The notes under the pieces were generated by a model. The model was given only the letters and a program-made list of their open reading frames with translations, had not been told where the DNA came from and did not search any database. A stretch of 64,000 nt of DNA. Source: Candidatus Woesearchaeota archaeon (GTDB taxonomy: Archaea > Nanobdellota > Nanobdellia > Woesearchaeales > JACPBV01). The stretch spans positions 495 through 64,494 of the forward strand of contig JAHWIN010000011.1 of NCBI GenBank assembly GCA_019322475.1, given 5' to 3'. Each line of letters starts with the position of its first letter. The stretch's first letter is position 1. A program made the translations under genes and the position numbers. This document shows positions 6,752 to 33,827 of the stretch, piece by piece.

Positions 6752-8317
6752 GTGACTGGTATGAAGCTCAACGAAAAGATAAGGGATTTTAACAAGAAGA
6801 AAAATGGCTTGCCTATAGATAAAGAACTGGTAAAAAAACAGCATGAAAAAGGCAAGCTGACAGCGCAGGAGCGATTAAGCCTCCTTCTTGATGAAGGCAC
6901 ATTCACAGAGATAGGCGAATTTATAGAGTTGAAAAGCCATGATTTCAATCTTCAGGAAAAGAAAAAGGCTGGAGATGGAGTTATCGCAGGCTACGGCCAG
7001 GTTAACGGCAGGCCTGTTTGCGTATATGCGCAGGATTTTACCTTCATGGGCGGGTCTATGGGAGAGATGCACAATAAGAAGATAGCCCAGGTTATGGATT
7101 TTGCTTTAAAGACGGGCTGCCCGATCATAGGGCTTTTTGATTCTGGCGGAGCAAGGATCCAGGAAGGCATCAATGGCCTTGATGGGGGAGGCCACATCTT
7201 TAAGATGAATTCACGCTGTAGCGGCGTAATACCCCAGATAAGCGCAATAATGGGGCCTTGCGCAGGCATCGCAGTATATTCTCCGGCATTGACTGATTTC
7301 GTATTTATGGTTGACAAGATAAGCTACATGTTTATAACCGGACCTGATGTTGTCAGGAGCGTAACAGGAGAAGATGTAGATTTCATGGGCCTTGGAGGCG
7401 CAGATGTCCATAGCACCAAGAGCGGGGTTTCTCATTTCTCTGCCTCAAGCGAGAAAGACTGCATACTGCAGATAAAAAAGCTGCTCAGTTACCTTCCTCA
7501 GAATAACCTTGAGGATACGCCCCCCATAGATATGGGTGACACCCCTGACAGGATAAACAGCAGGCTGAACGAGATAATACCTGCCGATCCGAAAAAAAGT
7601 TACGATGTTAGGGATGTTATAACAGAGATAGTGGATAAGAATTCCTTCTTCGAGGTCCATTCAGGATACGCGCAGAACTGCGTTGTAGGCTTTGCACGCC
7701 TCAACTCCAATGTTGTAGGCATAGTTGCAAACCAGCCAAAGGTCCTTGCAGGCTGCCTTGACGTAAACAGCTCTCAGAAGATATCCCGCTTTGTAAGGTT
7801 CTCTGACTCTTTCAACATACCTTTGATAAACCTTATTGATGTAACAGGATATCTGCCTGGAACAGACCAGGAATATAGTGGTGTGATAAAGCACGGCGCT
7901 AAGATCCTCTATGCTTATTCAGAAGCTACAGTCCCAAAGATAAGCCTTGTTATGAGAAAGGCGTATGGCGGAGCCTATATAGCCTTGGTAAGCAAGGATA
8001 TGGCATATGATTACACCCTTGCATACCCTATGGCAGAGATAGCGGTCATGGGAGCCGAGCAGGCAGTCAATATCCTTAACAAGAGGGACAAGGCCTCTAA
8101 GCAGTGGGATTCCATAAAAAAAGAAAAGACAGCTGAATTCTCTGAAAAATTCTTAAACCCCTATGTGGCTGCAAGCCAGGGAAAGATAGACAAGATAATA
8201 GACCCTAAGGAGACCAGGATTGCACTGATAAGCGCATTGGAGATGCTTATGCCCAAAAGGGAGGCCACAAAAGGCAAAAAGGCCATGCCAAGAAAACACG
8301 GCAATATGCCTCTGTAA
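6752..8317 (+). CDS. acyl-CoA (propionyl/methylmalonyl-CoA) carboxylase, carboxyltransferase subunit
   Basis: 521 aa with the PccB/AccD5-like duplicated crotonase-fold carboxyltransferase domains. Stretches such as 'GGARIQEG' and 'GPCAGIAVYSPALTDF' are characteristic. Confidence 0.85.
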   Translation: MTGMKLNEKIRDFNKKKNGLPIDKELVKKQHEKGKLTAQERLSLLLDEGTFTEIGEFIELKSHDFNLQEKKKAGDGVIAGYGQVNGRPVCVYAQDFTFMGGSMGEMHNKKIAQVMDFALKTGCPIIGLFDSGGARIQEGINGLDGGGHIFKMNSRCSGVIPQISAIMGPCAGIAVYSPALTDFVFMVDKISYMFITGPDVVRSVTGEDVDFMGLGGADVHSTKSGVSHFSASSEKDCILQIKKLLSYLPQNNLEDTPPIDMGDTPDRINSRLNEIIPADPKKSYDVRDVITEIVDKNSFFEVHSGYAQNCVVGFARLNSNVVGIVANQPKVLAGCLDVNSSQKISRFVRFSDSFNIPLINLIDVTGYLPGTDQEYSGVIKHGAKILYAYSEATVPKISLVMRKAYGGAYIALVSKDMAYDYTLAYPMAEIAVMGAEQAVNILNKRDKASKQWDSIKKEKTAEFSEKFLNPYVAASQGKIDKIIDPKETRIALISALEMLMPKREATKGKKAMPRKHGNMPL

Positions 8318-8318
8318 A

Positions 8319-8708
8319 ATGCAGGATTTAAAGGTCAAGCTGGACGGAAAAGATTACGACGTTAAGGTAGAGGAGCTAGACTCTGGAAGGTTGAAGGTAT
8401 ATCTTGATGGGGAATCTTTTGAGGTAGAGACAAGGTCAGACATAGAAAAGCAGCTTTTTGAAGAGGTCAAAAGTTCAGATGATCCAAAAGGAAAAAAGAT
8501 AGTGGCTGCCCCCCTTCCCGGAGCGGTATTTTCTGTATCTGTAAAAGAAGGGGATAAGGTGTCTAAGGGGCAGAAATTGGTAAGCCTTATGGCAATGAAG
8601 ATGGAGAATGAGGTTTGTGCTCCTGTCAAAGGGATTATAAAAGAGATTAAGGTAAAAAAAGGAGATTCTGTCGATAAAGGGGACATCCTCATGCTCTACA
8701 AGGATTGA
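8319..8708 (+). CDS. biotin carboxyl carrier protein (biotin/lipoyl attachment domain)
   Basis: 'LMAMKMENE' matches the A-M-K-M biotinylation motif. The gene is translationally coupled to the upstream carboxyltransferase gene. Confidence 0.8.
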   Translation: MQDLKVKLDGKDYDVKVEELDSGRLKVYLDGESFEVETRSDIEKQLFEEVKSSDDPKGKKIVAAPLPGAVFSVSVKEGDKVSKGQKLVSLMAMKMENEVCAPVKGIIKEIKVKKGDSVDKGDILMLYKD

Positions 8709-9149: not shown

Positions 9150-9275
9150 CTTGATTAATAAGTAATTCGTGCTAATTTATAAATCTTATTGAAAATAAAA
9201 AATAACTGGCACCAGATAGGTTTCTATTGGGCATATCAAACAAAAAAAAATAAATACTCCTCCAATATACTTGAT

Positions 9276-9701
9276 ATGAAGATGGCATCAAATAAGACAG
9301 AGCACAGGGTAAGGTACTCAGACACGGATCATTTTGGTGTTGTTTATTATGCCCGCTATCTTGACTGGTTCGAAGCAGGGAGGACAGAGATTCTAAGGTC
9401 AAAAGGCATCTCTTACGCAGATCTGGAAAAGAAAGGTCTTTTTGCTCCAGTTATAGAGATAAAGGTTAATTACAATAAGCCGGCAAGATACGACGATATT
9501 ATCGAGCTTGAGACCTCTGTTGAAAACATAGGGAATTCAAGCATCAGGTTCAGTTATAAGGTTTTCAGGAACCATCCGGAGTCAGATGGCGAGCAGGCCG
9601 AAAAAGAGCTTTTAGCTGAAGCATATACAGTCAATGTTTTCATCAATAAGGGCATGGAGCCTGTAAGGATACCGGATTACGTTAGGGATATCCTGAAATG
9701 A
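9276..9701 (+). CDS. acyl-CoA thioesterase, hotdog fold (YbgC/4HBT family)
   Basis: Starting at the internal ATG at 9276 gives 'HRVRYSDTDHFGVVYYARYLDWFEAGRTE', the 4HBT/YbgC catalytic signature. The ORF as tracked begins at 9189. Confidence 0.65.
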   Translation: MKMASNKTEHRVRYSDTDHFGVVYYARYLDWFEAGRTEILRSKGISYADLEKKGLFAPVIEIKVNYNKPARYDDIIELETSVENIGNSSIRFSYKVFRNHPESDGEQAEKELLAEAYTVNVFINKGMEPVRIPDYVRDILK

Positions 9702-9774: not shown

Positions 9775-10449
9775 TCATTTGGCTATAACATCACCCTCGA
9801 TGATCCTTGTCTTTTTTCCTTTCTTGTCCTTTATTATAAGAAAACAGTCTTTATCAACATCAGTTGCAGTCCCTCTATACGTTTTTCCTATGCTTCTGAC
9901 AACAACCTCAGAGCCTAAGAACGATCTTTTCTTCCACTCATTGATTATCTTATTGTATTTTTTATTTTTAAGTTTCTCAATGTAAGCCTCAAGATGCCTT
10001 AAAACCGCATTTATCAGCCGTTTATTGTCTACATCTTTTCCTATTATCTGGCTTAATGAAACCGCCTTATCCTTCAGGCTCTTGGGAATCTTGTTGTTTG
10101 TGTTTATCCCTATCCCCACTATCGCTTTATCACCTGCCTGTGTCAATATCCCGCATACCTTCTTTTTATTGTAGGTCAGGTCATTAGGCCACTTGATAAC
10201 GGTTTCTACCCTATAAGTATCTTTTATCGCATTGTATACGGACAACGCAGCAGCAAAAGTAAGATAACTCATTTCAAAAGGCTCAAGAACGATAGACATA
10301 TAGGCCCCTCCTCTTAAGGAGCTCCACCTCCTCTTAAATCTTCCCTTCCCTTTTGTCTGGGAGTCTGCTATTATCACCGAATTTACCTTAAACTCCCTGG
10401 CTTTTTCACTTGTAGATCGCAGTTCCTTAAAGTGGTAGGCCTTAAGCAT
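9775..10449 (-). CDS. birA: biotin--[acetyl-CoA-carboxylase] ligase (BirA, catalytic core without the HTH domain)
   Basis: 'GKGRFKRRWSS' matches the biotin-protein-ligase GRGRxGRxW motif. Its 3' end overlaps the biotin carboxylase gene. Confidence 0.75.
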   Translation of the reverse strand: MLKAYHFKELRSTSEKAREFKVNSVIIADSQTKGKGRFKRRWSSLRGGAYMSIVLEPFEMSYLTFAAALSVYNAIKDTYRVETVIKWPNDLTYNKKKVCGILTQAGDKAIVGIGINTNNKIPKSLKDKAVSLSQIIGKDVDNKRLINAVLRHLEAYIEKLKNKKYNKIINEWKKRSFLGSEVVVRSIGKTYRGTATDVDKDCFLIIKDKKGKKTRIIEGDVIAK

Positions 10450-12325
10450 TTTCTCCTGAATTTATCTGCTCCTGCCTCCCGGCCATAGCCCACGCCAAAG
10501 GCATACTCCCTTTCTTTCTCTTTTCCATATGCTGGGAAACAGCTGTGCTTATTATCAGCACCTTCTCTTTTTTGGTAAGGCTGTTTTTCCTTGGCTTCTC
10601 TTTTACAAGCTTCCCTATTATGCCATGCTTTTCTATGAAGCTTGTGGTTATATTGCCTTTGACAAAGCCCTTGCAGTTAAGCACAGCTTTATGGAAAGGG
10701 GCAGTCGTCTCTACGCCTTCTATCATGAACTCATCCAGTGCCCTCTTCATCCTGGCTATGGCTTCATTCCTGTTGGCGCCCTTGCACATTAGTTTAGCTA
10801 TCAAAGAATCATAATGGGGGCTTACAACATGCCCTGTATGGCATGAGCTGCATACCCTTATCCCTGGCCCTCCTGGAGGAAGATAGTTTGTTATTGTGCC
10901 TGTCTGCGGACAAAAATCCTTTGATGGGCACTCTGCATTTATCCTGCACTCTATAGCAGACCCATCTATTTTTATATCCTCCTGCCTGTATGCCAGTTCT
11001 GCGCCTGCAGCAATCTTTATCTGCTCCTTAAGAAGGTCAACACCGGTTATCATCTCAGTTATGCCGTGCTCTACCTGTATCCTTGTGTTCATCTCCATGA
11101 AATAAAAGTTATTCTTGTCGTCAAGAAGGAATTCAACAGTTCCAGCTCCCTCATATTTTACAGATTTCACTATCTGGGTTGCAGCCTTCCCTATGGTCTC
11201 CCTTAATTTTTTGTTTAGGGCAGGGGAAGGTGCCTCTTCTATCAGCTTTTGGTGCCTTCTCTGTATGCTGCAGTCCCTCTCCCCAAGGTGGATAACATTG
11301 CCATGGCTGTCTCCGAGTATCTGGAGTTCTATATGCCTTGGCTCTTCCATGTACTTTTCCATGTACAGCGAATTATCCCCGAAAGAGGCTTCAGCTTCTG
11401 ATCGTGCGCTCTTGAAAGCAGCAGCTATATCTTTTTCATTCCTGACAACCCTCATCCCTTTTCCACCCCCTCCCGATACAGCCTTGATTATAAGCGGATA
11501 ACCTATAATCTTGGCTGATTTTAATGCATCAGCCTCGTCTTTTAATGACCCTCTTCCCATGATAACAGGGATGCCTAGGCTTTTTATGGTCTCTTTTGCC
11601 CTGTCCTTATTGCCCATAAGCACTATTGACTTTGAGGAAGGCCCTACAAACTTGATCCTATTCTGCTCGCATATCCTTGCGAAATCGCTGTTTTCTGAAA
11701 GGAACCCGTATCCAGGATGTATTGCATCTGCATTTGCCTTTTTGGCTATCCTTATTATCCTTTTATAGTCCAGGTAAGAATTAGAGCCCTCCCCCACGCA
11801 ATATTTTTCATCTGCAAACCTTACTGCCAGGGTTTTCTTGTCCTGTTTTGAATATACCACAACTGTTTTTATGCCTAGTTCCCTGCATGCCCTCAGTATC
11901 CTTAATGCTATCTCGCCCCTGTTTGCTATAAGCACCTTCTTGAACAGCTTTTCCCTGCTTACCTTGGTATACTCCTTTTCCTCTTCTACATTGGTCAATC
12001 CTTTAGCGAGCATATCCAGGAAGGATTTGGATGATCTGTCTTTGATTATCTTGTTGATCTGGCTTTCAGTAAGGTTAGGGAGCTTTTTTGCAAAGTTCTT
12101 TGCTATAAGGTCCCCAAACCCGTTTATATCAGGATTATGCATCAGTTTTTCATCTTTCTCTAGGGTAACTAGATGTGATTTTATTATCTTCTCTATCTCA
12201 TTGCATATATAAGGGACCCTGTCGTGGGTTTTCTTAGCTACCCTTTTCAGAAAGCCATAGCTCTTTGCCATCGGCAGAAGCAGCTTGTTTACAGTATCTG
12301 CCACCCTTCTCTCTGTGCTTCCCAT
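10442..12325 (-). CDS. biotin carboxylase subunit (AccC/PycA-like, ATP-grasp)
   Basis: 'KVLIANRGEIALRILRACRELGI', 'GGGGKGMRVV', 'EMNTRIQVEH' and 'SPHYDSLIAKL' mark the biotin carboxylase domains. The tracked ORF adds a ~130-aa N-terminal stretch, so the true start may be an internal Met. Confidence 0.85.
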   Translation of the reverse strand: MGSTERRVADTVNKLLLPMAKSYGFLKRVAKKTHDRVPYICNEIEKIIKSHLVTLEKDEKLMHNPDINGFGDLIAKNFAKKLPNLTESQINKIIKDRSSKSFLDMLAKGLTNVEEEKEYTKVSREKLFKKVLIANRGEIALRILRACRELGIKTVVVYSKQDKKTLAVRFADEKYCVGEGSNSYLDYKRIIRIAKKANADAIHPGYGFLSENSDFARICEQNRIKFVGPSSKSIVLMGNKDRAKETIKSLGIPVIMGRGSLKDEADALKSAKIIGYPLIIKAVSGGGGKGMRVVRNEKDIAAAFKSARSEAEASFGDNSLYMEKYMEEPRHIELQILGDSHGNVIHLGERDCSIQRRHQKLIEEAPSPALNKKLRETIGKAATQIVKSVKYEGAGTVEFLLDDKNNFYFMEMNTRIQVEHGITEMITGVDLLKEQIKIAAGAELAYRQEDIKIDGSAIECRINAECPSKDFCPQTGTITNYLPPGGPGIRVCSSCHTGHVVSPHYDSLIAKLMCKGANRNEAIARMKRALDEFMIEGVETTAPFHKAVLNCKGFVKGNITTSFIEKHGIIGKLVKEKPRKNSLTKKEKVLIISTAVSQHMEKRKKGSMPLAWAMAGRQEQINSGENA

Positions 12326-12558
12326 ATTAGGATATAGTTGGTTTTTTCTTTAAAAATGTTGGTTTTTTCTAAGGGCTCTTATCAAACAGCAGGGGGCCTC
12401 AACTTGCCATTTATCCAAAATGTAGCTTATTTGCCCCATACCCCCTCCAAAAACCGCCACATTTAAATAGCCATAATAATTCTTGACCCCCAGTATACAG
12501 AAAATTCGAATTCTGTACGAGTTGGAAGTATAACTAAACTAAAAGGTGAATATATAAG

Positions 12559-12741
12559 ATGGGATTTGAAAGCAGTTTTGGAGAAAGAGAGATGCACAAG
12601 GCAACATGTGCAGATTGTGGTAATGAATGTGAGGTTCCTTTCAAGCCAACAGAAGGCAGGCCTGTATATTGCAGGGAATGCTACCAGAAGCACAGGAAGC
12701 CAAGGTCAGGCGGAAGAGGCGGATTCAAGCCTAGGTTTTGA
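12559..12741 (+). CDS. small zinc-ribbon protein with a C-terminal RGG/basic tail
   Basis: CADCG...CRECY is a four-cysteine ribbon followed by 'RSGGRGGFKPRF'. It lies upstream of the acdh-etfBA genes on the same strand. Confidence 0.45.
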   Translation: MGFESSFGEREMHKATCADCGNECEVPFKPTEGRPVYCRECYQKHRKPRSGGRGGFKPRF

Positions 12742-12836
12742 TCATTCTGTTTCTTTTTTATATTTTTTAAAATTTTTTAAGAGCAATCTTTATAAATCAC
12801 TATGGATTTCTTGTTTTTCAAGGGGGATGTTTTTCG

Positions 12837-13991
12837 ATGGATTTTACATTTACGCCAGAGCAGTCAGCTATAAAGAAGATGATCACAGAGTTTGTAGACT
12901 CTGAAGTCAAGCCTTATGCAGATGATGCAGATAAGGAAGAGATATTCCCTGAAGAGCAGATAGGCAAGCTGGCTAAGCTCGGAATCATGGGCATGTCTAT
13001 ACCTAAGAAGTATGGCGGGACCGAGCTGGATAATGTTTCTCAGACTATAATAATGGAAGAGGTCAGCAGGGGCTGCAGCGCAACAGCAGTCACTATGGGC
13101 GCACATTCAAGTCTTGCATGCCATCCTATAGTCAATTTTGGCACTGAAGAACAGAAAAAAAGGTTTCTGCCAAAACTCGCTTCTGGGGAATATTTAGGTG
13201 CATTTGCCCTTACAGAGCCCAATGCAGGAAGCGACGCAGTCAATGTCCAGACTACCGCAGTTCGTGAAAAAGATAATTACATAATAAACGGAAATAAGAT
13301 CTTCATTACAAACGGCGGTAAAGCAGACCTCATAAACATAGTGGCTACGACCGACAGGGGCAAAAAGCACCATGGCCTGAGCATATTTGCTGTAGAGGCA
13401 AAAAAGGCTAAGGGATTCAGCCTCGGCAAAAAAGAGGATAAGCTTGGCCTGAGGGGCTCCAATACCCAGGAGCTCGTCTTTGAGGATATGGAGATCCCAA
13501 AGGAAAACCTTATTGGGGGTATTGAAGGTGAGGGGTTTAAGATAGCTATGAGCGTTTTCAACTCAGGGAGGATAGGCATAGGCGTCCAGGGAGTTGGCAT
13601 TGCCCAGGCTGCTTTTGACGAAGCCTTGAGGTATGTCCAGGAGAGGGAGCAGTTCGGCAGGAAGCTCCATAAGTTCCAGGCTTTGCAGTTCATGCTTTCA
13701 GATATGGCAGTTAGGATAGATGCTGCAAGGCTTTTGTGCTATAGGGCAGCGCATACTAAAGATAAGGGAAAAAGGTATGTAAAAGATGCTGCTATGGCAA
13801 AGGTGTATGGCTCAGAGACAGCCATGGATGTGGCAAGAAAAGCCCTACAGATACACGGCGGCTACGGCTATATCAAGGATTACCCTCTGGAAAGGTTTTA
13901 CAGGGACGCCAAGATAACAGAGATCTATGAGGGCACGTCTGAAGTGCAGAGGCTCGTTATAGCAGCAGAGCTTTTAGGCAGGGGCTTTTGA
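12837..13991 (+). CDS. acyl-CoA dehydrogenase (short/medium-chain type)
   Basis: Full-length ACAD fold. The C-terminal '[13 protein letters not shown]' contains the catalytic-Glu signature. Confidence 0.85.
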
Positions 13992-14061: not shown

Positions 14062-14856
14062 ATGAAAATAATAGTATGTATCAAGCAGGTTCCTGACACT
14101 AATAAGGTAAAGATAAACCCTAAGACAGGAACATTGGTCAGGGAAGGGGTCAAGGCGATAATGAACCCCGAGGATAAGCATGCTTTGATAGAGGCAGTAA
14201 GGATAAAGAAGGATCATGGCGCTAAGGTGGCTGCCCTTTCTATGGGCCCCCCTCAGGCAGAAGATGTATTGAGGGAAGCATTGGCCCTGGGTGCAGACGA
14301 AGCCATATTATTGTGCGATAGGGCATTTGCAGGCTCAGACACATGGGCAACAGCAAATGCCATAGGTGCAGCTGTAAGGTCTATCGGGGATTGTAGCTTA
14401 TTGTTGTTTGGAAGGCAGGCTATAGACGGAGACACAGCCCAGGTTGGCCCCCAGGTAGCAGAGTTTCTTAACATGCCTCAGATAACATATGCCCGGAAGA
14501 TAGAGATTATCGGTGATAAGGTGAGGGTTGAAAGGCAGATGGAAGACGGCTACGAGATAATAGAGTCAAAGATGCCCTGCCTTATAACCTGCATGGAAGA
14601 GCTAAACAAGATGGAATATCCTTCTTTGGGCGGCATAAGGGAAGCATATATGGAAAAAAAGGTAAATGTTCTTGGGATGAAAGACATAGGTGCGGACAGC
14701 TCAACTGTAGGGCTGCTAAGCTCTCCCACCTCTGTAAAAAGATCATTCACCCCTCCGCCAAAAGGCAGCGGCCAGATGATAAAAGGCTCTGCCAAAGAGG
14801 CTGCAGATAAGATAGTTTCTTTATTGAAAGAGAAAGAGATGGTAGGTGCATTCTGA
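14062..14856 (+). CDS. etfB: electron transfer flavoprotein, beta subunit
   Basis: 'MKIIVCIKQVPD' is the EtfB N-terminal signature, and the gene is ATGA-coupled to etfA. Confidence 0.8.
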   Translation: MKIIVCIKQVPDTNKVKINPKTGTLVREGVKAIMNPEDKHALIEAVRIKKDHGAKVAALSMGPPQAEDVLREALALGADEAILLCDRAFAGSDTWATANAIGAAVRSIGDCSLLLFGRQAIDGDTAQVGPQVAEFLNMPQITYARKIEIIGDKVRVERQMEDGYEIIESKMPCLITCMEELNKMEYPSLGGIREAYMEKKVNVLGMKDIGADSSTVGLLSSPTSVKRSFTPPPKGSGQMIKGSAKEAADKIVSLLKEKEMVGAF

Positions 14857-16028
14857 TGGTAAAGGCAAGGCTGTCTATGAACTGCCCTGAAACCCAGCTT
14901 AACCTGGGAGGCATAGTCTTGATAAAGGGAAATGATTTTGAGGACATCCCTGATCTGCCTGAGGTTCAGCAGGCCATAGCTAATGGCTATTTAGAGGTCC
15001 TTGCTGAAAAGAAGAAAGAGGGACCCAAGGAAAAAAAAGAAGGCAGCGAGATCCTGGTATTTGCAGAGCAAAGGAACGGCAGGATAGCAAGAGTAGTCTT
15101 TGAGCTTTTGGGAAAAGCAGGGGAATTGGCAGATAAGTTAGGGGTAAATACAGCAGCCATACTTTTGGCAGATAAGGATGATGGCTTAAGCAAAGAGATC
15201 ATAAGTTACGGAGCAGATAAGGTTTATCTTGCTCGATCACCTTTATTAAAAGACTACCAGACAGGCTTATATGCAAAATCAATATCAAAACATATACAGG
15301 ATACAAAGCCCCAGATAGTCCTTTATGGAGCGACACACATAGGAAGGGATTTGGCCCCCAGGATAGCCCAAAGGCTCGGCACAGGATTGACAGCAGACTG
15401 TACAGATCTGAGCATCACTGATGAGGGTTTGTTGTTGCAGACAAGGCCCGCATTTGGGGGAAACCTTATGGCTCAGATAATATGCAAAAAGCACAGGCCC
15501 CAGATGTCCACAGTAAGGCCGGGAGTCATGAAGATAAAGGAAAAGGATGAAAGCAGAAAAGGGGAGGTGGTAGCTATAACTCCAGATATCTCTGAAAAAG
15601 ACAGGCTCACAACTCTTGTAAAGGTGATAAAAGAGGCAAAAAAGAAAGTAAACCTTGAGGAAGCTGATATTATAGTTGCTGGAGGCAGGGGCCTTGGAAA
15701 AAAGGAAAATTTTAAGCTTATAACTGATCTTGCAGCCATTCTTAATGCAGAGGTTGGAGCTTCAAGAGCTGCTGTAGATTCAGGCTGGATATCCAAAGAC
15801 CACCAGGTTGGGCAGACCGGAAAGACAGTACGGCCTAAGCTCTATATTGCAGTAGGCATCTCAGGAGCTATCCAGCACAAGGCTGGGATGCAGGACTCCA
15901 GTTTGATAATAGCAATAAACAAGGATTCAGAAGCACCTATATTCGAGGTGGCAGATTACGGGATAGTTGGGGATCTGTTCCAGGTAGTTCCAGAGGTCAT
16001 AAGCAGGCTGAAGCAGGAAAAAGTGTAA
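14856..16028 (+). CDS. etfA: electron transfer flavoprotein, alpha subunit (with a ~65-aa N-terminal extension)
   Basis: 'ILVFAEQRNG' and the FAD-binding 'GISGAIQHKAGM' segment are EtfA hallmarks. The start codon overlaps the etfB stop. Confidence 0.8.
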   Translation: MVKARLSMNCPETQLNLGGIVLIKGNDFEDIPDLPEVQQAIANGYLEVLAEKKKEGPKEKKEGSEILVFAEQRNGRIARVVFELLGKAGELADKLGVNTAAILLADKDDGLSKEIISYGADKVYLARSPLLKDYQTGLYAKSISKHIQDTKPQIVLYGATHIGRDLAPRIAQRLGTGLTADCTDLSITDEGLLLQTRPAFGGNLMAQIICKKHRPQMSTVRPGVMKIKEKDESRKGEVVAITPDISEKDRLTTLVKVIKEAKKKVNLEEADIIVAGGRGLGKKENFKLITDLAAILNAEVGASRAAVDSGWISKDHQVGQTGKTVRPKLYIAVGISGAIQHKAGMQDSSLIIAINKDSEAPIFEVADYGIVGDLFQVVPEVISRLKQEKV

Positions 16029-16125: not shown

Positions 16126-16893
16126 GTGCGGCATACAGAGTGCCACCGTACTGCTATAATCTCTGGATGTTATCCTGCCTATATGCTTAAAAGCCAAATA
16201 ACCATAAGTTTTATAATGAAAATAAGCTTTTCTAACATTATGATTCATCCTATACAGAGGCTTATAGTCCCCCCTTTATTGAAATTGGTGTGGGTAAAGG
16301 AGATAAAAGGCATAGAGAACATTCCAAGGGATGGGCTTTTTGTGGTTACGCCTAATCATCAGAGCTTTTTCGATGACTGGCTTGTCCCAAGCATAATCAT
16401 GCCTTATCTAGGCAAAGAGCTCCATATGTATGTAAACAGGAACTATTTTAAGAACAGGCTCTTTAGGATGTACTGTAACCACCATAAGTGTATCCCTGTT
16501 GAGGTTCATGAAAGCAGGGATAAAAAAGAGCTTAATGAAGCAGCGTTCCAGAAAGCCCTGTACTACTTAAGAAAAAAAGAGCCGATATGCATATATCCTG
16601 AAGGCCACAGGAGCTTTGATGGAGAGCTGCAAAAGGCAAAAGTAGGTGCTGCAAGGCTGGCGATAGCTGCTAAGGTTCCTGTGCTGCCTGTAGGAATATC
16701 AGGGTCAAGAGAGGTTTTGCCTAAAGACAAGTCATTCCCCTCCCTTAAAAGAAAGATCAGCATAATCATAGGAAAGCCGATACAATTAAATAACTATTAT
16801 GGCCACGAGGATGATAGAATGGCTTTAAAGGAAGCAACAGCCTTGATCATGAAAGAGATAGCAGGATTGATAGGCAAGGAGTATAATTATTAA
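16126..16893 (+). CDS. PlsC-family lysophospholipid/1-acyl-sn-glycerol-3-phosphate acyltransferase
   Basis: HX4D acyltransferase motif 'NHQSFFDDW' and 'YPEGHRS' block. The true start is probably the internal Met near 'MKISFSN'. Confidence 0.65.
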   Translation: MRHTECHRTAIISGCYPAYMLKSQITISFIMKISFSNIMIHPIQRLIVPPLLKLVWVKEIKGIENIPRDGLFVVTPNHQSFFDDWLVPSIIMPYLGKELHMYVNRNYFKNRLFRMYCNHHKCIPVEVHESRDKKELNEAAFQKALYYLRKKEPICIYPEGHRSFDGELQKAKVGAARLAIAAKVPVLPVGISGSREVLPKDKSFPSLKRKISIIIGKPIQLNNYYGHEDDRMALKEATALIMKEIAGLIGKEYNY

Positions 16894-16894
16894 G

Positions 16895-17527
16895 ATGGAC
16901 TACCCTATATGGGGGCGTATAATCCCCCCAGTCATTGGATTATGGATAAAAAAGATAAATGGGCTAGAGAACATACCAAAAACAGGAGGCCTTGTAGTAT
17001 CTGCTAATCATTCAAGCTACCTTGACCATCTGATGATATCTTCCATAGTCGTTAAGTATTCAGGAAGGAAGATCCATTACCTTGCAAAGAAAGAGCACTT
17101 CGAAAAATTTTTCCAGAGGCTTTGGCATAAGAATGTCGGAGCAATCCCGATAGATCGCCAGTCAGGAGGCAAAGAGGCATTAAATACCGCAGTTAAATAT
17201 TTAAATGATGGAAAGATAATAGGGGTATATCCTGAAGGGACAAGGACGCTTACAGGAAAGCTTCAAAGGGCAAGGACCGGGGCTGCCAGGCTTGCCTTAG
17301 CAGCTAAGGTTCCTGTTTTGCCTATAGGCCTTATAGGTACATTTGATATAATGCCCAAAGGCCAGCACTACCCTAAGATGAAAAGGGCAGTAGTAAATAT
17401 CGGAAAGCCCCTTTATTTTAAGGAGTATTATGGAAAAGAAGAGGATAAGGCGATAATAAGGTTGGTGACCACTAAGATAATGAGGGAGATTGCCTCATTA
17501 TGCGGGCAAAGATATGAGTTTGATTAA
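16895..17527 (+). CDS. PlsC-family 1-acyl-sn-glycerol-3-phosphate acyltransferase (second paralogue)
   Basis: 'NHSSYLDHL' (HX4D), 'YPEGTRT' and 'PVLPIG' acyltransferase blocks. Confidence 0.7.
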   Translation: MDYPIWGRIIPPVIGLWIKKINGLENIPKTGGLVVSANHSSYLDHLMISSIVVKYSGRKIHYLAKKEHFEKFFQRLWHKNVGAIPIDRQSGGKEALNTAVKYLNDGKIIGVYPEGTRTLTGKLQRARTGAARLALAAKVPVLPIGLIGTFDIMPKGQHYPKMKRAVVNIGKPLYFKEYYGKEEDKAIIRLVTTKIMREIASLCGQRYEFD

Positions 17528-17528
17528 G

Positions 17529-18503
17529 ATGAAAATAGCGGTTATAGGTGCAGGAGGATGGGGAACGACCCTCGCCAATCTTTTGGCTGAAAAGAACAAG
17601 GATGTTACCCTGTGGGCTCTTGAAAAAGAGGTAGTTGACGAGATAAGCTCTAAAAGGGAAAATTCACGGTTTCTACCGGGAATAAAGCTTCTTGGAAACA
17701 TCACCCCAACAAATGATCTGGAAGATGCCGTTACTGATAAGGATTTTATCATAACTGCAATACCCTCTTCATTCATTAGGGGGATGGCAAAAGAGATGTC
17801 CCGGTTTATCAGCCCGGATACTATTGTAATATCTGTGACAAAAGGCCTCGAAGACATGACATTCAAGAGGATGTCAGAGATCCTGGAAGACGAATTAAAA
17901 AACAGGGTAATCGCATTGTCCGGCCCCAATCACGCAGAGGAGGTCAGCAGGAAGATACCTACAGCGACAGTCATAGCATCCAAACATTCAGGCATCCTTC
18001 CTAAGGCCAAGGCAGTCCTGGAAACCCCTTATTTTAAGGTTTACCCTCATGACGATGTCGTAGGGATAGAGATATGCGGCGCAGTCAAGAATATAACTGC
18101 TATAGCCATAGGCGTTTGTGATGCCCTTAAATTAGGCGACAATGCAAAAGCGTCTATAATAACATTGGGCCTTACCGAGATGAGCCGGGTAGGAAGATTT
18201 TTTGGGGCAAAAAGGGCAACATTCTACGGCTTAGCCGGAGTAGGCGACCTTATAGCTACATGCACCTCAAAGCATTCCCGGAATAGGTTTGTAGGGGAAA
18301 GGATTGCAGAGGGAAAATCATTTGAAGATATAAGGGAAGAGATGCACGGAATGGTTGCAGAAGGAATAAGGGCAGCAAAGTCTGTTTATGATCTGGCAAA
18401 AAAAGAGGACATAGACCTCCCTTTGACAACCCAGGTCTATAAGGTCCTCTATGAGAAAAAAGACCTGAAAAAAGCCATAAACGACCTTATTACCCTCATC
18501 TGA
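17529..18503 (+). CDS. gpsA: NAD(P)H-dependent glycerol-3-phosphate dehydrogenase (GpsA; makes the bacterial-type sn-G3P backbone)
   Basis: 'MKIAVIGAGGWGTTLANLL' is the GpsA Rossmann signature and the protein is GpsA-like throughout. Start placed at ATG 17529; the tracked ORF begins at 17490. Confidence 0.8.
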   Translation: MKIAVIGAGGWGTTLANLLAEKNKDVTLWALEKEVVDEISSKRENSRFLPGIKLLGNITPTNDLEDAVTDKDFIITAIPSSFIRGMAKEMSRFISPDTIVISVTKGLEDMTFKRMSEILEDELKNRVIALSGPNHAEEVSRKIPTATVIASKHSGILPKAKAVLETPYFKVYPHDDVVGIEICGAVKNITAIAIGVCDALKLGDNAKASIITLGLTEMSRVGRFFGAKRATFYGLAGVGDLIATCTSKHSRNRFVGERIAEGKSFEDIREEMHGMVAEGIRAAKSVYDLAKKEDIDLPLTTQVYKVLYEKKDLKKAINDLITLI

Positions 18504-18518
18504 ACAGCTTTAATGGTT

Positions 18519-19121
18519 TTACTCCTCTGTAAAATCCTCGATATTCTCTTTGAATTCGCTGTCCTTTTTTATTATTCCTCTTCCTTTCAGGTATTCCCTT
18601 GCAAGTATATAGAATATCAGGCCAAGGCTTTTCTTCCCCTTGTTGTTGCACGGAACGACTAAGTCTATATTGTTTGACTGGTTGTTAGTATCGCACAATG
18701 CTACGATAGGGATCCCTATCTTGTTTCCGTCTATTATTGCATTCCTGTCAGGCCATGAATCTGTGGCAAAAAGTATCTTGGATTCGGAATATATGTCCAA
18801 TGCAGGATTTGTAAGCATCCCTGGCGGGTATCTCCCTGTTATTATCTTTATGCCTGTAGCCTTTCCAAACGCCTTTATAGATTTCCAAGCATTCTCTCTC
18901 CTGCTCACTACAACGATATCCTCCGGAGCGTATTGCGAAAGGAAATTAGCTGCTATCCTTATCCTCTCATCTATCCTGCTTAGGTTCAGTATGCTCAGCC
19001 CGTCAGGCCTAGTCTTGTAGATGAACTGTTCCATATAGCGTGTCTTGAATTTTGTTCCTATGTGGATTCCTGACTTAAGGTACTGGTCCTGAGGTATTAA
19101 AAGCTGCTTTTGTTCTGCCAT
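18519..19121 (-). CDS. rps2: ribosomal protein uS2
   Basis: 'LLIPQDQYLKSGIHIGT' and 'DLVVPCNNKGKKSLGLIFYILARE' are S2 signatures. Confidence 0.85.
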   Translation of the reverse strand: MAEQKQLLIPQDQYLKSGIHIGTKFKTRYMEQFIYKTRPDGLSILNLSRIDERIRIAANFLSQYAPEDIVVVSRRENAWKSIKAFGKATGIKIITGRYPPGMLTNPALDIYSESKILFATDSWPDRNAIIDGNKIGIPIVALCDTNNQSNNIDLVVPCNNKGKKSLGLIFYILAREYLKGRGIIKKDSEFKENIEDFTEE

Positions 19122-24836: not shown

Positions 24837-26168
24837 TCAGGGCTCTATGGCTATCTGGGAGGAGCCCCTCTCACTCGGGGGTATATTCACCCTTTTGGCT
24901 ATTATCTCCTTCATCTCATTGCCTGCATCATCCTCTGCAGTAACTGCAAAATAATACCTGCCTTCAAACCCGTCTAGGAGTATATTATTCTCCCCCTTAG
25001 TAATCGGAATTTCCAGCTTATTCATCTGGCCTGTGCTGATAGGTGGTTTTGAAGGGCTGTCTTTACCCCCTATATTGATTATCTTCTTATAATAGACCTT
25101 ATAGCTTGAAGCATCAGAGGCATTGTTCCTCCATGTAAGATACCACCCATCCTCTCCTTTTTCCAAAAGATTCCCTTCTTCATCTGTTATTATCTCTGTG
25201 GCAGGAGGCTCAAAATCATCCTTGAACCTTAGCCCGTATTTGGCTATCATCTCCTTTTCATAATAAGGGTTTTCAAAGGAACCATCCTTTATTTTGACAA
25301 GTAATGTATAAGTCTTCTCAGGATAAAGCTTAGATTCTTCACCTGAAATAGCAGGGGCATCAGCTATAGGCACTATCGGGATTATCTCATAATCCTCGAT
25401 CCCCTCTACTCCATCTTCACCCTTGACCCCTTTTATTATCCTGTCCTTGTCAGAGCACACTATAAAATCATCGCCGTCATCAGCCTCATAGCTCCCTTTC
25501 TTAAGGCACTCGACAACACTTTCCTTTATCTCCTTAGCTTTTTCACCATACTCTTCAAATTTATCTATAAAATTATACCCTCCTTCATAGCTGAAAGAAG
25601 GCTTTAGCGAATAATCAGAATGCCCTTCCTCAGAACTCACTATCAGGTCCTGGGCTGCAATCCCGTTGACCATGATTGTATCTCCCTTATTCTCAAAGGT
25701 AAAGTCATAATTATCCAAAGGTATGGGAACAGCAGGATACGCCTTAAGGTACACATCAAGCTTCCTGTTGAGGAAATAAGAAAAGCCCACAGCAAGGTCC
25801 CTCTCTTCAGGATAGCACTCTGTCGTAATAGTGATCCCGCCCTCTTCACTTTCAAAAGTCTCCCAAAGGGAATATCCATCATCACCATACACATATTTCC
25901 CGCACTCACTATTATGGAACCCCCCATTGCTTCCAAGATCATAAACTGCATCATAAAATGCGTATTCTGCTGATTGGTCTATGTATTTTTTTATCTTAAT
26001 GGCATCATACATCAGTTTATAAGAGTCTAAAAAAACCTCTCCTATGAATTCTGTTTCTTTTGGAAGGTTTCTGGAACAATTCAATCCATAGAATAGCAAC
26101 AAGGATATTGCAAGGAAAAAAATTACAGGATAATACAATATCATTGCTCTTTTATTCAATACCATCAT
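24837..26168 (-). CDS. large secreted/anchored surface protein at the downstream end of the pilin-like operon
   Basis: N-terminal 'NKRAMILYYPVIFFLAISLLLF' hydrophobic anchor followed by a ~400-aa acidic ectodomain. Start is coupled to the upstream gene by a 4-nt overlap. Confidence 0.4.
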   Translation of the reverse strand: MMVLNKRAMILYYPVIFFLAISLLLFYGLNCSRNLPKETEFIGEVFLDSYKLMYDAIKIKKYIDQSAEYAFYDAVYDLGSNGGFHNSECGKYVYGDDGYSLWETFESEEGGITITTECYPEERDLAVGFSYFLNRKLDVYLKAYPAVPIPLDNYDFTFENKGDTIMVNGIAAQDLIVSSEEGHSDYSLKPSFSYEGGYNFIDKFEEYGEKAKEIKESVVECLKKGSYEADDGDDFIVCSDKDRIIKGVKGEDGVEGIEDYEIIPIVPIADAPAISGEESKLYPEKTYTLLVKIKDGSFENPYYEKEMIAKYGLRFKDDFEPPATEIITDEEGNLLEKGEDGWYLTWRNNASDASSYKVYYKKIINIGGKDSPSKPPISTGQMNKLEIPITKGENNILLDGFEGRYYFAVTAEDDAGNEMKEIIAKRVNIPPSERGSSQIAIEP

Positions 26169-26761
26169 GGGCCACTTGATTCTCCTAGCTCCTTTAATGT
26201 CTTTTCATATTTTGTTAGATTTCTCCCTGTCCCATGAGTTAAGTCTACTCCTATTAAAGGAACGCCCCTATCTGGATTGGGGGTTATAGCTCTGGAATAT
26301 CCTGCATCGCTTGAGATTATGCCCTCAGTAGAGCTTATCTGCACCTTAAAGCCTATAGATTCTAAGGTTAGGTATGTTTTCTTCCCCTTTTCAACCTCCT
26401 GTCTTTTAGATTCATCATATATCTTAAGGTTATAGTAATCACTCTCAAATATCTCGGTGGCTTTCTTTTCAAGCTCATGATAATTATCTTTATTAAAAGA
26501 ATCAACTATCAACTCACTAAAACTTTTCATCTCTCCGCCAGACTCAACCCTCGTTTCCAAAATCTCTATCATTTTTTGTTCTGCCTTAAGGTTATTCAAT
26601 TTGCCCCTTATTAGGATATGATCAGCCTTGTCTTTTGTCCTGCTGCGGACCCCCAGAAAAAGGACAATAGCTACAATTCCACAGACTCCAAACAAAAAAG
26701 AAGCAAGGTCATCAACTGCAATCCCCTTTTTTGACTTGAGTAGCTTATGCATTTTGCTCAC
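26165..26761 (-). CDS. pilin-like protein (class III signal peptide-like N-terminus)
   Basis: 'KSKKGIAVDDLASFLFGVCGIVAIVLFLGV' is a basic residue, Gly, then a hydrophobic helix. Overlaps the flanking genes. Confidence 0.4.
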   Translation of the reverse strand: MSKMHKLLKSKKGIAVDDLASFLFGVCGIVAIVLFLGVRSRTKDKADHILIRGKLNNLKAEQKMIEILETRVESGGEMKSFSELIVDSFNKDNYHELEKKATEIFESDYYNLKIYDESKRQEVEKGKKTYLTLESIGFKVQISSTEGIISSDAGYSRAITPNPDRGVPLIGVDLTHGTGRNLTKYEKTLKELGESSGP

Positions 26762-28246: not shown

Positions 28247-28247
28247 A

Positions 28248-29045: not shown

Positions 29046-29073
29046 TGTTTTTTAACACCAATCCATGTTTCTA

Positions 29074-29418: not shown

Positions 29419-29440
29419 GTTCTATCTTTAATCTTGAACT

Positions 29441-30928: not shown

Positions 30929-31105
30929 GTCTTGTTTCTATCTCAATCTTAATCTATTTCCACCCAAAAAACCGGTTTACTATGCCTATTATCTGCTCCC
31001 TCAATCCTCCATAAAAAAATAGTATAAAGATGGCAAATAAAAATAATAGCGCCCACCATATCACTTTTTCCCATGGAAGCGCCAAAGCGCCTTTTTTATC
31101 TTTCA

Positions 31106-33214: not shown

Positions 33215-33220
33215 ATTAAG

Positions 33221-33538: not shown

Positions 33539-33540
33539 TA

Positions 33541-33798: not shown

Positions 33799-33827
33799 TT
33801 TAAATAAAAAAAGAAAAAATAAAAAGA

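What the first reader, a model, noticed from the sequence alone, without database searches (positions are those of the whole stretch)
16126..18503. Bacterial-type glycerolipid backbone module (GpsA plus two PlsC acyltransferases) in an archaeal genome
This contig is archaeal: eL19, eL32, eS4, aSUI1, RadA/RadB, Hef and a PriS-PriL primase are all present. Yet it encodes GpsA (signature GAGGWGTTLA), which makes sn-glycerol-3-phosphate, the bacterial/eukaryotic stereoisomer. It also encodes two tandem PlsC-type acyltransferases with HX4D and PEGxR motifs. Together these would make ester-linked diacyl-G3P (phosphatidic acid), crossing the archaeal/bacterial 'lipid divide'. No G1P dehydrogenase, GGGP synthase or DGGGP synthase gene is visible in this window. 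If the lineage is DPANN-like, which usually scavenges host lipids, a self-encoded G3P/acyl pathway is especially notable.
Basis: partly seen in the sequence, partly recalled or inferred. Interest (0 to 1): 0.8.

Follow-up and report, generated by a model that had tools for sequence, protein, structure and literature searches.

The report
Bacterial-type lipid backbone operon in Woesearchaeota
A small archaeon of the Woesearchaeota really does carry a three-gene operon for making bacterial-style (glycerol-3-phosphate, ester-linked) membrane lipid precursors. The operon is old and conserved across this archaeal group, but its presence there has been reported before and its function has never been tested.

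Summary
Window 16240-18503 (+) encodes two tandem PF01553 acyltransferases and a full-length bacterial-type GpsA, flanked by archaeal uS2, RadA, eS4 and eL32. The first gene starts at ATG 16240, not GTG 16126.

All three proteins are already in GenBank, from a 64,661-bp Candidatus Woesearchaeota contig, under the same names.

The contig is not chimeric and the module is not a recent transfer. GC, GC3 and codon usage match the rest of the contig. The order PlsC-A/PlsC-B/GpsA/uS2(-)/LigT/TRAM/RadA recurs in 38 of about 40 informative Woesearchaeal species genomes.

The two acyltransferases are ancient, distinct paralogues. B keeps all four glycerolipid acyltransferase blocks. A lacks the block II Asp-Arg.

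The neighbourhood extends the finding: acyl-CoA carboxylase, biotin ligase, an acyl-CoA thioesterase and Acd/EtfBA lie just upstream. Relatives also carry a hot-dog dehydratase/thiolase/thiolase/FabG-like block that this window lacks.

The most likely function is CoA-dependent synthesis of phosphatidic acid from DHAP.

GpsA, PlsC and fatty-acid genes in Woesearchaeota were published between 2016 and 2021, so novelty is low. The biochemistry remains untested.

The parts
16240..16893 (+). Acyltransferase paralogue A (217 aa), GPAT/LPAAT (AGPAT) fold; candidate first acyltransferase
   Evidence: PF01553 scores 81.3 bits. TIGR00530 scores 59 bits, below the 102.95 cutoff. The protein is identical to GenBank P0241, '1-acyl-sn-glycerol-3-phosphate acyltransferase [Ca. 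Woesearchaeota]'. The AlphaFold model has pLDDT 92.7, and its best PDB match is T. maritima PlsC 5KYM (E 3e-10, TM 0.66), followed by squash GPAT 1K30 and human GPAT1. Blocks I, III and IV are present. Block II reads KCIPVEV, without Asp-Arg.
16895..17527 (+). Acyltransferase paralogue B (210 aa), canonical PlsC-like LPAAT motifs
   Evidence: PF01553 scores 103.2 bits. TIGR00530 scores 94.4 bits, just under the 102.95 cutoff. The only PDB hit is 5KYM PlsC, E 4.9e-16. Motifs are NHSSYLDH, GAIPIDR, PEGTRT and VPVLPIG. It is identical to GenBank P0121, and more than 120 Woesearchaeal clusters share 58-77% identity.
17529..18503 (+). GpsA, NAD(P)H-dependent sn-glycerol-3-phosphate dehydrogenase (GenBank start two codons earlier, 17523)
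   Evidence: NF000942 scores 403 bits against a cutoff of 257. PF01210, PF07479 and PF20618 all match. The best PDB hit is T. maritima G3PDH 1Z82 at E 4e-73, against 1e-39 for Archaeoglobus 1TXG. Family-invariant residues G7/G9/G12, K105, K187, N188, D240, T244 and R251 are all present. It is identical to GenBank P0001.
16211..16217 (+). TTTATAA, putative archaeal TATA box for the three-gene operon
   Evidence: Read directly from the sequence. It lies 23 nt upstream of ATG 16240. The gaps between the three genes are 1 nt each. The promoter function is inferred, not tested.
12837..13991 (+). Acyl-CoA dehydrogenase (Bcd-like); candidate enoyl-CoA reductase together with Etf
   Evidence: Four Acyl-CoA_dh Pfam domains match. 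The best NCBIfam hit is AcrC-like at 505 bits, below its cutoff. It lies directly upstream of the acyltransferase pair in L002, L004-L008, L010, L013, L014, L016, L040 and L054.
14062..14856 (+). Electron transfer flavoprotein beta subunit
   Evidence: PF01012 scores 151.5 bits. NF040731 scores 355.8 bits, below its cutoff.
14856..16028 (+). Electron transfer flavoprotein alpha subunit
   Evidence: PF01012 and PF00766 match.
12560..12741 (+). Small zinc-ribbon protein conserved upstream of Acd
   Evidence: tblastn with the L054 zf gene (PF23477) gives 93% identity. The sequence was read.
10442..12325 (-). Biotin carboxylase (AccC) with an N-terminal extension of about 125 aa
   Evidence: TIGR00514 scores 658.5 bits against a cutoff of 626.5, aligned to residues 128-567.
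9775..10449 (-). Biotin-protein ligase BirA
   Evidence: TIGR00121 scores 157 bits against a cutoff of 83.1.
9189..9701 (+). YbgC/FadM-family acyl-CoA thioesterase
   Evidence: TIGR00051 scores 95.1 bits against a cutoff of 68.7. PF03061 and PF13279 match.
8319..8708 (+). Biotin carboxyl carrier protein
   Evidence: PF00364 scores 69.3 bits. NF004173 scores 104.8 bits, below its cutoff.
6752..8317 (+). Acyl-CoA carboxylase carboxyltransferase subunit (PccB/MmdA type)
   Evidence: PF01039 scores 599 bits. TIGR01117 scores 734 bits, below its cutoff.
18519..19121 (-). Archaeal ribosomal protein uS2, convergent with gpsA; conserved flank that anchors the module in an archaeal chromosome
   Evidence: TIGR01012 uS2_euk_arch scores 250.7 bits against a cutoff of 211.5. 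It is adjacent to gpsA in about 40 loci.

Best explanation
The window comes from a Woesearchaeota (DPANN) chromosome. Positions 16240-18503 form one operon. GpsA reduces DHAP to sn-glycerol-3-phosphate. Two diverged, soluble or peripheral AGPAT-family acyltransferases then add two acyl chains to give phosphatidic acid. Paralogue B is the canonical 1-acyl-G3P (sn-2) acyltransferase. Paralogue A probably performs the first acylation of G3P.

The acyl donors are most likely acyl-CoAs. Every neighbouring lipid gene is CoA-based: acyl-CoA carboxylase, acyl-CoA thioesterase and acyl-CoA dehydrogenase/Etf. Relatives add thiolases, a FabG-like reductase and a hot-dog dehydratase. No ACP, PlsX or PlsY lies nearby.

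The module was inherited vertically within Woesearchaeales after an old acquisition.

Shown here: gene identities, motifs, fold, operon structure, conservation, and native composition. Inferred: the division of labour between A and B, the acyl-CoA donor, and that the product is used as membrane lipid.
For: - Family assignments pass curated thresholds for GpsA and Pfam thresholds for both acyltransferases.
- GpsA keeps all family-invariant residues.
- The paralogue A model is confident and matches PlsC/GPAT structures. Paralogue B aligns to 5KYM with blocks I-IV intact.
- Gene gaps are 1 nt, and a TATA-like box precedes the first gene.
- The tandem A-B-GpsA order occurs in 38 Woesearchaeal loci. 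A and B form two separate clades and share 39% identity over their full length.
- Acd/EtfBA, ACC, BirA and a thioesterase lie adjacent in the window.
- Relatives carry FabA-like, thiolase, DUF362, thiolase and FabG-like genes next to the module.
- A PlsY motif was found next to gpsA in 8 of 9 acidobacterial loci but in none of the Woesearchaeal loci.
- Precedent: the PlsC homologue PlsM has no TM domain, uses acyl-CoA and acylates G3P directly (PMC10593935).
- Published genome surveys found no GGGPS or DGGGPS in Woesearchaeota (PMC8421398).
Against: - There is no biochemical or lipidomic evidence for any archaeon.
- Both acyltransferases score below the TIGR00530 cutoff.
- Paralogue A lacks the block II Asp-Arg that is implicated in glycerol-phosphate binding. 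That role is my own knowledge (Lewin et al. 1999).
- No CdsA/CarS or CDP-alcohol phosphatidyltransferase motif was found within 10 kb in any Woesearchaeal locus (this was a motif-only test).
- In this window the condensing/KR/DH block is absent.
- Close relatives vary. L001 keeps only paralogue A, and L003 has neither acyltransferase upstream.
- Lokiarchaeum ossiferum also has a related GpsA next to an acyltransferase. To my knowledge, only isoprenoid ether lipids have been attributed to cultured Asgard archaea.
- Coleman et al. judged a lipid role for archaeal PlsC/GpsA homologues unlikely.
Confidence: 0.55

Rival explanations
1. This is salvage or remodelling rather than de novo synthesis. 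The organism takes fatty acids or lysolipids from a bacterial host or the environment. The two acyltransferases re-acylate them, and GpsA supplies or balances G3P.
For: - The DPANN lifestyle is widely thought to depend on lipid scavenging (PMC7242380, PMC11868695).
- This window lacks the thiolase/KR/dehydratase block that relatives have.
- A YbgC/FadM-family acyl-CoA thioesterase is present.
- PF01553 includes lysophospholipid acyltransferases, and several relatives are annotated as 'lysophospholipid acyltransferase family'.
Against: - Tight operonic coupling to GpsA in 38 genomes fits backbone synthesis better than remodelling.
- Acyl-CoA carboxylase and its biotin ligase are retained in the window.
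- Relatives have a biosynthetic-type (FabG/FabA-like) chain-building block next to the module.
Confidence: 0.25
2. The genes have nothing to do with membrane backbone stereochemistry. GpsA works in glycerol or redox metabolism, or makes G3P for polar head groups. The PF01553 enzymes acylate some other acceptor, such as ether lysolipids, amino lipids or a small molecule.
For: - G3PDH and GlpK in archaea are known from glycerol metabolism, and Coleman et al. argue against a lipid role.
- Both acyltransferases are below the curated AGP_acyltrn cutoff.
- Paralogue A has a non-canonical block II.
- Huang et al. interpret the adjacent Bcd/EtfAB as redox balancing.
Against: - No GlpK or GlpA/D is nearby.
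- Conserved co-transcription of a G3P-forming enzyme with two glycerolipid-fold acyltransferases is hard to explain otherwise.
- Paralogue B has every motif of a bona fide LPAAT.
Confidence: 0.15
3. It is an assembly or binning artefact (a bacterial fragment joined to an archaeal contig), or a very recent horizontal transfer.
For: The gene families are typically bacterial. The nearest non-archaeal GpsA representatives are Firmicutes/Clostridium at 45-49% identity.
Against: - GC (0.41-0.45), GC3 and codon usage of the three genes are indistinguishable from uS2, RadA, SecY, primase and Hef on the same contig.
- The same junctions (RadA or EtfA | PlsC-A, and GpsA | uS2) recur in about 40 independent assemblies from different studies.
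- No bacterial GpsA exceeds 53% identity (trimmed-alignment maximum; 38-50% for the full-length bacterial representatives listed), while Woesearchaeal sequences share 47-81%.
Confidence: 0.02

Closest known systems
Bacterial phosphatidic acid pathway (GpsA, then PlsB or PlsX/PlsY, then PlsC)
   Same: It has the same GpsA family with all conserved residues, the same AGPAT-fold acyltransferase with HX4D/PEGTR catalytic blocks, and gpsA clustered with the acyltransferase genes.
   Different: No PlsB, PlsX or PlsY is nearby. A second short PlsC-like paralogue occupies the place of the first acyltransferase. The genomic context is CoA-based rather than ACP-based. The host is an archaeon.
Mycobacterial PlsM/PlsB2 acyl-CoA-dependent route (PMC10593935)
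   Same: A PlsC homologue without transmembrane segments uses acyl-CoA and can acylate G3P itself. No PlsX or PlsY is involved.
   Different: The partner enzyme in mycobacteria is a large PlsB-type protein, whereas here both enzymes are PlsC-like proteins of about 210 aa. No sequence affinity to PlsM was tested. Activity is unknown.
PlsC/PlsY/GpsA homologues reported in Marine Group II/III, Lokiarchaeota and DPANN (Villanueva et al. 2017 as cited in PMC6431249; PMC6737245; PMC8204110)
   Same: This is the same phenomenon: bacterial-type glycerolipid genes in uncultured archaea. Woesearchaeota are explicitly listed for GpsA, and DPANN for PlsC.
   Different: Those surveys describe the genes as patchy. 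Here the three genes form a conserved operon across one order, with a paralogue pair and adjacent chain-building genes. In Lokiarchaeia only GpsA is closely related (55-56% identity), and the neighbouring acyltransferase is distant (36%).
Thermotoga maritima PlsC (PDB 5KYM)
   Same: It is the best sequence and structure match for both paralogues. The catalytic core and blocks I, III and IV are the same.
   Different: The alignment starts at residue 66 of 5KYM. The N-terminal two-helix membrane anchor is reduced to about 20 residues with one predicted helix.
Archaeoglobus fulgidus G3PDH (PDB 1TXG), the characterised euryarchaeal GpsA
   Same: It has the same fold and family.
   Different: The window protein is much closer to the bacterial T. 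maritima enzyme (E 4e-73) than to the Archaeoglobus enzyme (E 1e-39).

Membership tests
GpsA, NAD(P)H-dependent glycerol-3-phosphate dehydrogenase | N-terminal NAD-binding domain plus C-terminal substrate domain (PF01210 + PF07479) | tested here: met
   The domains score 178.1 and 193.4 bits and both align full length.
GpsA, NAD(P)H-dependent glycerol-3-phosphate dehydrogenase | Score above a curated NCBIfam cutoff | tested here: met
   NF000942 scores 403 bits (cutoff 257) and NF000940 scores 339.9 bits (cutoff 202).
GpsA, NAD(P)H-dependent glycerol-3-phosphate dehydrogenase | GxGxxG dinucleotide loop and the conserved Lys, Lys-Asn, Asp, Thr and Arg substrate/catalytic residues | tested here: met
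   G7/G9/G12, K105, K187-N188, D240, T244 and R251 are each conserved in at least 97% of 128 homologues, including bacterial ones. Their roles are assigned from my own knowledge of GPD1/GpsA structures.
GpsA, NAD(P)H-dependent glycerol-3-phosphate dehydrogenase | Produces the sn-3 stereoisomer from DHAP | not testable with these tools
   This requires an enzyme assay. It is inferred from family membership.
PlsC / AGPAT (LPLAT) glycerolipid acyltransferases | PF01553 acyltransferase domain | tested here: met
   Paralogue A scores 81.3 bits and B scores 103.2 bits, against a cutoff of 23.
PlsC / AGPAT (LPLAT) glycerolipid acyltransferases | Curated 1-acyl-G3P acyltransferase model TIGR00530 above its cutoff | tested here: not met
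   Paralogue A scores 59.0 bits and B scores 94.4 bits, against a cutoff of 102.95. B is a near miss and A is clearly below.
PlsC / AGPAT (LPLAT) glycerolipid acyltransferases | Block I HX4D catalytic dyad | tested here: met
   A has NHQSFFDD and B has NHSSYLDH. The His is invariant and the Asp is conserved in at least 90% of the 40-sequence alignment.
PlsC / AGPAT (LPLAT) glycerolipid acyltransferases | Block II (G-x-[IF]-F-I-[RD]-R) glycerol-phosphate binding | tested here: inconclusive
   B has GAIPIDR (met). A has KCIPVEV plus a 6-residue insertion, and no conserved Arg (not met).
PlsC / AGPAT (LPLAT) glycerolipid acyltransferases | Block III (PEGTR) and block IV (hydrophobic-Pro) | tested here: met
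   A has YPEGHRS and VPVLPVG. B has YPEGTRT and VPVLPIG. P120, E121 and R124 are invariant in the A family.
PlsC / AGPAT (LPLAT) glycerolipid acyltransferases | GPAT/LPAAT alpha-beta fold | tested here: met
   The paralogue A model has pLDDT 92.7. Top PDB hits are 5KYM PlsC, 1K30 GPAT, 8E4Y GPAT1 and PatA. Paralogue B was not modelled.
PlsC / AGPAT (LPLAT) glycerolipid acyltransferases | Acceptor (G3P or LPA) and donor (acyl-CoA or acyl-ACP) specificity | not testable with these tools
   The fold search cannot separate GPAT from LPAAT.
Bacterial PlsX/PlsY acyl-phosphate route | PlsY gene associated with gpsA | tested here: not met
   The PlsY signature GSGN[IV]GATN was found between LigT and GpsA in 8 of the 9 acidobacterial loci, but in no Woesearchaeal locus and not in the window. 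This was a motif-level test covering only 10 kb on each side.
Canonical archaeal G1P ether-lipid pathway | G1PDH, GGGPS and DGGGPS genes | tested here: not met
   None was found among the roughly 68 window ORFs scanned with Pfam. GGGPS and DGGGPS are reported absent from Woesearchaeota genomes (PMC8421398). The rest of this genome was not available.

The most novel reading that the evidence does not exclude
A whole order-level clade of archaea (the Woesearchaeales lineages carrying this island) may have replaced the archaeal G1P-isoprenoid-ether membrane with a self-made G3P-diacyl ester membrane. On this reading an ACP-independent, CoA-based fatty-acid pathway (thiolases, FabG-like KR, hot-dog dehydratase, Acd/Etf as enoyl reductase, and acyl-CoA carboxylase) feeds a two-paralogue PlsC system. 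A copy of the GpsA gene was later passed from this clade to Lokiarchaeia.
Probability: 0.3. Interest if true: 0.8.

Novelty: already known. Interest (0 to 1): 0.4.

Why it matters
The 'lipid divide' (G1P ethers in Archaea, G3P esters in Bacteria and Eukarya) is central to models of early cell evolution and eukaryogenesis. An archaeal lineage that encodes only the bacterial-type backbone would be a natural counter-example, and a model for how a membrane transition can happen.

This locus adds three things to the published gene-presence tables:
- The genes form a conserved, native operon rather than patchy or contaminant hits.
- The two acyltransferases are differentiated paralogues.
- The operon sits in a CoA-based lipid gene island.

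It also shows that a published statement, that Woesearchaeota cannot make membrane lipids because GGGPS and DGGGPS are missing (PMC8421398), overlooked this alternative route. The three-gene operon is small enough to be tested directly by heterologous expression.

Tried and rejected
- Exact look-ups of the window GpsA and of its GenBank version in the assembly index found nothing. The source record and the rest of the MAG could therefore not be retrieved.
- Chimeric contig: rejected on composition and on synteny across about 40 assemblies.
- Recent HGT: rejected on the same grounds, and because Woesearchaeal GpsA sequences have diverged to 47-81% identity while keeping their context.
- The GTG 16126 start: rejected in favour of ATG 16240.
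- Transmembrane anchoring: no 19-residue window exceeds Kyte-Doolittle 1.6 in either acyltransferase. They are not integral membrane proteins.
- tblastn of the relatives' FabA/thiolase/DUF362/thiolase/KR block against the window found no hit apart from the zf and Acd genes.
- Motif scans for CdsA/CarS, CDP-alcohol phosphatidyltransferase, PlsY and UbiA near the module found nothing in the Woesearchaeal loci.
- A literature search for Lokiarchaeum ossiferum lipid data gave nothing usable.
- The label 'Candidatus Nomurabacteria' on L009, and 'uncultured Methanosarcinales' on many loci, were set aside as mis-binning or mislabelling. Those contigs carry archaeal uS2 at 65-79% identity and the same synteny.
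- L043, first counted as Woesearchaeal, groups with Lokiarchaeia and lacks the synteny.
- The trees are neighbour-joining only, because no ML program was available.
Full report
**What is there.** Three same-strand ORFs lie at 16126/16240-16893, 16895-17527 and 17490/17529-18503.
- The first two match the Pfam acyltransferase family PF01553 at 81.3 and 103.2 bits (cutoff 23).
- The third has the complete G3P dehydrogenase architecture: PF01210 at 178 bits, PF07479 at 193 bits, plus PF20618.
- NCBIfam places the third gene above a curated cutoff for NAD(P)H-dependent glycerol-3-phosphate dehydrogenase (NF000942, 403 bits against 257).
- Both acyltransferases fall below the curated 1-acyl-G3P acyltransferase model TIGR00530 (59.0 and 94.4 bits against 102.95).

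**Gene starts.** The first gene should start at ATG 16240, giving 217 aa. The GenBank protein has that start (P0241), and the consensus of its orthologues begins there. A TTTATAA element lies 23 nt upstream. The three genes are separated by 1 nt each, which indicates one transcription unit.

**Whose genome.** All three proteins are identical to GenBank entries from a 64,661-bp contig of 'Candidatus Woesearchaeota archaeon'. They are already named G3P dehydrogenase and 1-acyl-sn-glycerol-3-phosphate acyltransferase. The window also encodes:
- archaeal uS2 and RadA, both above equivalog cutoffs;
- a RadB-like protein;
- SecY, a fused PriS-PriL primase and Hef;
- uL3, uL4, eS4 and eL32.

**Not an artefact, not recent.** GC is flat at 0.41-0.47 across 1-24 kb. 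GC, GC3 and codon usage of the three genes are indistinguishable from the informational genes on the contig.

A scan of one genome per GTDB species with GpsA returned 53 loci. tblastn of the window's proteins against them shows the order acyltransferase, acyltransferase, GpsA, then uS2, LigT, TRAM and often RadA on the opposite strand. This order occurs in 38 Woesearchaeota/Nanoarchaeota species genomes from many independent studies.
- Two further loci are cut by contig ends.
- One (L001) keeps only the first acyltransferase, and one (L003) has neither.
- Woesearchaeal GpsA sequences have diverged to 47-81% identity while keeping this context.

The module is therefore an old, vertically inherited feature of the lineage.

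**The two acyltransferases.** They share 39% identity over their full length, including shared N- and C-terminal features. In a tree of 76 copies, the upstream (A) and downstream (B) copies form two clades. The duplication therefore predates the sampled radiation, and both copies have been kept.
- Paralogue B has all four glycerolipid acyltransferase blocks: NHSSYLDH, GAIPIDR, PEGTR and VPVLPIG. It aligns to T. maritima PlsC (5KYM) at E 4.9e-16.
- Paralogue A keeps blocks I, III and IV, but block II reads KCIPVEV with a six-residue insertion and no conserved Arg.
- An AlphaFold model of A is confident (pLDDT 92.7). It matches PlsC first, then squash GPAT, human GPAT1 and PatA. This places A in the GPAT/LPAAT fold but does not identify its acceptor.
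- Neither protein has a predicted transmembrane helix. The long N-terminal anchor of 5KYM is reduced to about 20 residues.

A documented precedent exists for a TM-less PlsC homologue that uses acyl-CoA and acylates G3P directly: mycobacterial PlsM (PMC10593935). Two PlsC-type enzymes can therefore plausibly make phosphatidic acid without PlsB, PlsX or PlsY. A PlsY signature was found next to gpsA in 8 of the 9 acidobacterial loci, but in no Woesearchaeal locus.

**GpsA.** All residues conserved in at least 97% of 128 homologues are present: the GxGxxG loop, K105, K187-N188, D240, T244 and R251. The protein is far closer to the bacterial T. maritima enzyme (1Z82, E 4e-73) than to the characterised Archaeoglobus enzyme (1TXG, E 1e-39).

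An exhaustive search of 1.84 billion cluster representatives gave a best non-self hit at 56% identity. That cluster contains 'Promethearchaeota' (Asgard) proteins. The next representatives, at 44-49%, include Clostridium, Firmicutes and a Methanobacteriota MAG.

In neighbour-joining trees:
- Woesearchaeal plus Lokiarchaeial GpsA form a clade (92/100);
- the Lokiarchaeial sequences are monophyletic (100/100);
- Woesearchaeota alone are almost never monophyletic (5/100).

This suggests transfer from Woesearchaeales into Lokiarchaeia. It needs ML confirmation.

**A larger lipid neighbourhood.** On the same strand, directly upstream, lie an acyl-CoA dehydrogenase and EtfB/EtfA. Further upstream are:
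- a carboxyltransferase, BCCP and biotin carboxylase (TIGR00514 above cutoff);
- BirA (above cutoff);
- a YbgC/FadM acyl-CoA thioesterase (above cutoff).

In close relatives the stretch between biotin carboxylase and Acd holds five more genes. These are a FabA-like hot-dog protein, an archaeal-type thiolase, a zinc-ribbon/DUF362 protein, a second thiolase, and a FabG-like reductase that scores 295.9 bits against the 3-oxoacyl-ACP reductase cutoff of 297.75. More distant Woesearchaeal loci keep the same block within 10 kb of the module. FabG- and FabA-type enzymes are the biosynthetic kind, not the crotonase/3HCDH pair used in beta-oxidation or butyrate fermentation. That distinction is my own knowledge.

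Together these genes look like a CoA-based route from acetyl-CoA to phosphatidic acid. In this window the five-gene block is absent: biotin carboxylase is followed directly by the small zf gene and Acd. One contig cannot show whether the block was moved or lost.

**How it most likely works.** GpsA makes G3P from DHAP. Paralogue A performs the first acylation and paralogue B the second, using acyl-CoA. The product is phosphatidic acid for membrane lipid. I put this at about 0.55.
- The main rival (0.25) is salvage or re-acylation of scavenged fatty acids and lysolipids. This fits DPANN biology and the missing chain-building block here.
- A non-backbone role is less likely (0.15). In that case G3P would serve head groups or glycerol metabolism, and the acyltransferases would act on other acceptors.
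- Artefact or recent HGT is effectively excluded.

No downstream enzyme (CdsA/CarS or a CDP-alcohol transferase) was seen near the module. Lokiarchaeum ossiferum also has a related GpsA beside a distant acyltransferase, although to my knowledge cultured Asgard archaea have yielded only archaeal ether lipids. This cautions against reading membrane composition from gene presence.

**What is known.**
- GpsA in Woesearchaeota was tabulated in 2016 (PMC5059525).
- GpsA in Woesearchaeota and PlsC/PlsY in DPANN, MGII/III and Asgard were tabulated in 2019. Those authors doubted a lipid role because the genes seemed patchy (PMC6431249).
- Castelle et al. [quoted passage not shown]
- Later work adds FabG/FabI/FabZ and cyclopropane-fatty-acid synthase in Woesearchaeota (PMC10936187), and discusses bacterial-like lipids in this group (PMC11868695).
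- Huang et al. 2021 analysed this very subgroup (their MAGs YT1_182 and MP5_5_87 are L010 and L001). They concluded that it may be unable to make membrane lipids for lack of GGGPS and DGGGPS, and treated Bcd/EtfAB as redox balancing. They did not mention the acyltransferase-GpsA operon (PMC8421398).

**Verdict.** I did not find the following details in the papers I could read:
- operon-level conservation;
- the A/B paralogue split;
- the CoA-based island, and its partial absence in this genome;
- the Woesearchaeal-Lokiarchaeial GpsA link.

I rate novelty as 'already known' and interest at 0.4.

Noticed in passing
window 24837-37211 (- strand): About 17 consecutive ORFs (up to 495 aa) have no Pfam hit at E<=1e-5, and GC is slightly lower here (0.37-0.40). 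A comparable run of Pfam-less genes follows the RPA gene in relatives (L054 16037-20993; the P0129 contig). It therefore looks like a conserved lineage-specific cluster rather than a mobile element.
   Followed up: partly
window 10442-12836, compared with L054 1-5440 and L002 498-5426: The five-gene block of FabA-like, thiolase, DUF35/DUF362, thiolase and FabG-like genes lies between biotin carboxylase and zf-Acd in close relatives. It is absent from this window. It has either been deleted or relocated in this genome.
   Followed up: partly
L037, L038, L043 (Lokiarchaeia) and P0354: Complete Lokiarchaeial genomes (Lokiarchaeum ossiferum, Harpocratesius repetitus) carry a GpsA 55-56% identical to the Woesearchaeal one. 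It nests inside the Woesearchaeal clade in NJ trees. In L. ossiferum it is convergent with a 269-aa PF01553 acyltransferase. A 2019 paper stated that no Loki or Thor genome had gpsA.
   Followed up: partly
L009 (LBZW01000033.1) and many 'uncultured Methanosarcinales archaeon' loci (e.g. L002, L005-L008): A 5-kb contig filed under Candidatus Nomurabacteria (CPR bacterium) carries EtfA, both acyltransferases, GpsA and an archaeal uS2 at 75% identity. It is a mis-binned Woesearchaeal contig. The 'Methanosarcinales' labels on the binchicken MAGs with the same synteny also look wrong.
   Followed up: partly
L044-L052 (Acidobacteriota loci): A LigT-like gene, PlsY and GpsA lie in a row on one strand in the acidobacterial loci. 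A LigT gene also lies about 1 kb from gpsA in Woesearchaeota, on the opposite strand after uS2. This may be coincidence.
   Followed up: no
window 10442-12325 (-): The biotin carboxylase is 627 aa. Its N-terminal extension of about 125 residues matches no Pfam family. The orthologue on the P0129 contig is 646 aa, so the extension is conserved.
   Followed up: no
window 51838-53490 (-): A single 550-aa ORF combines the small (PriS) and large (PriL) primase subunit domains.
   Followed up: no
window 55080-57323 (-): A UvrD/REP-type superfamily 1 helicase carries an N-terminal RQC domain and a C-terminal HRDC domain, which are normally found with RecQ helicases.
   Followed up: no
window 12566-12904 (+) versus 12560-12741 (+): The 112-aa ORF in the mechanical ORF list is probably spurious. 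The real gene here is a 60-aa zinc-ribbon protein (PF23477 family in relatives), 93% identical to its L054 orthologue and conserved upstream of Acd.
   Followed up: yes
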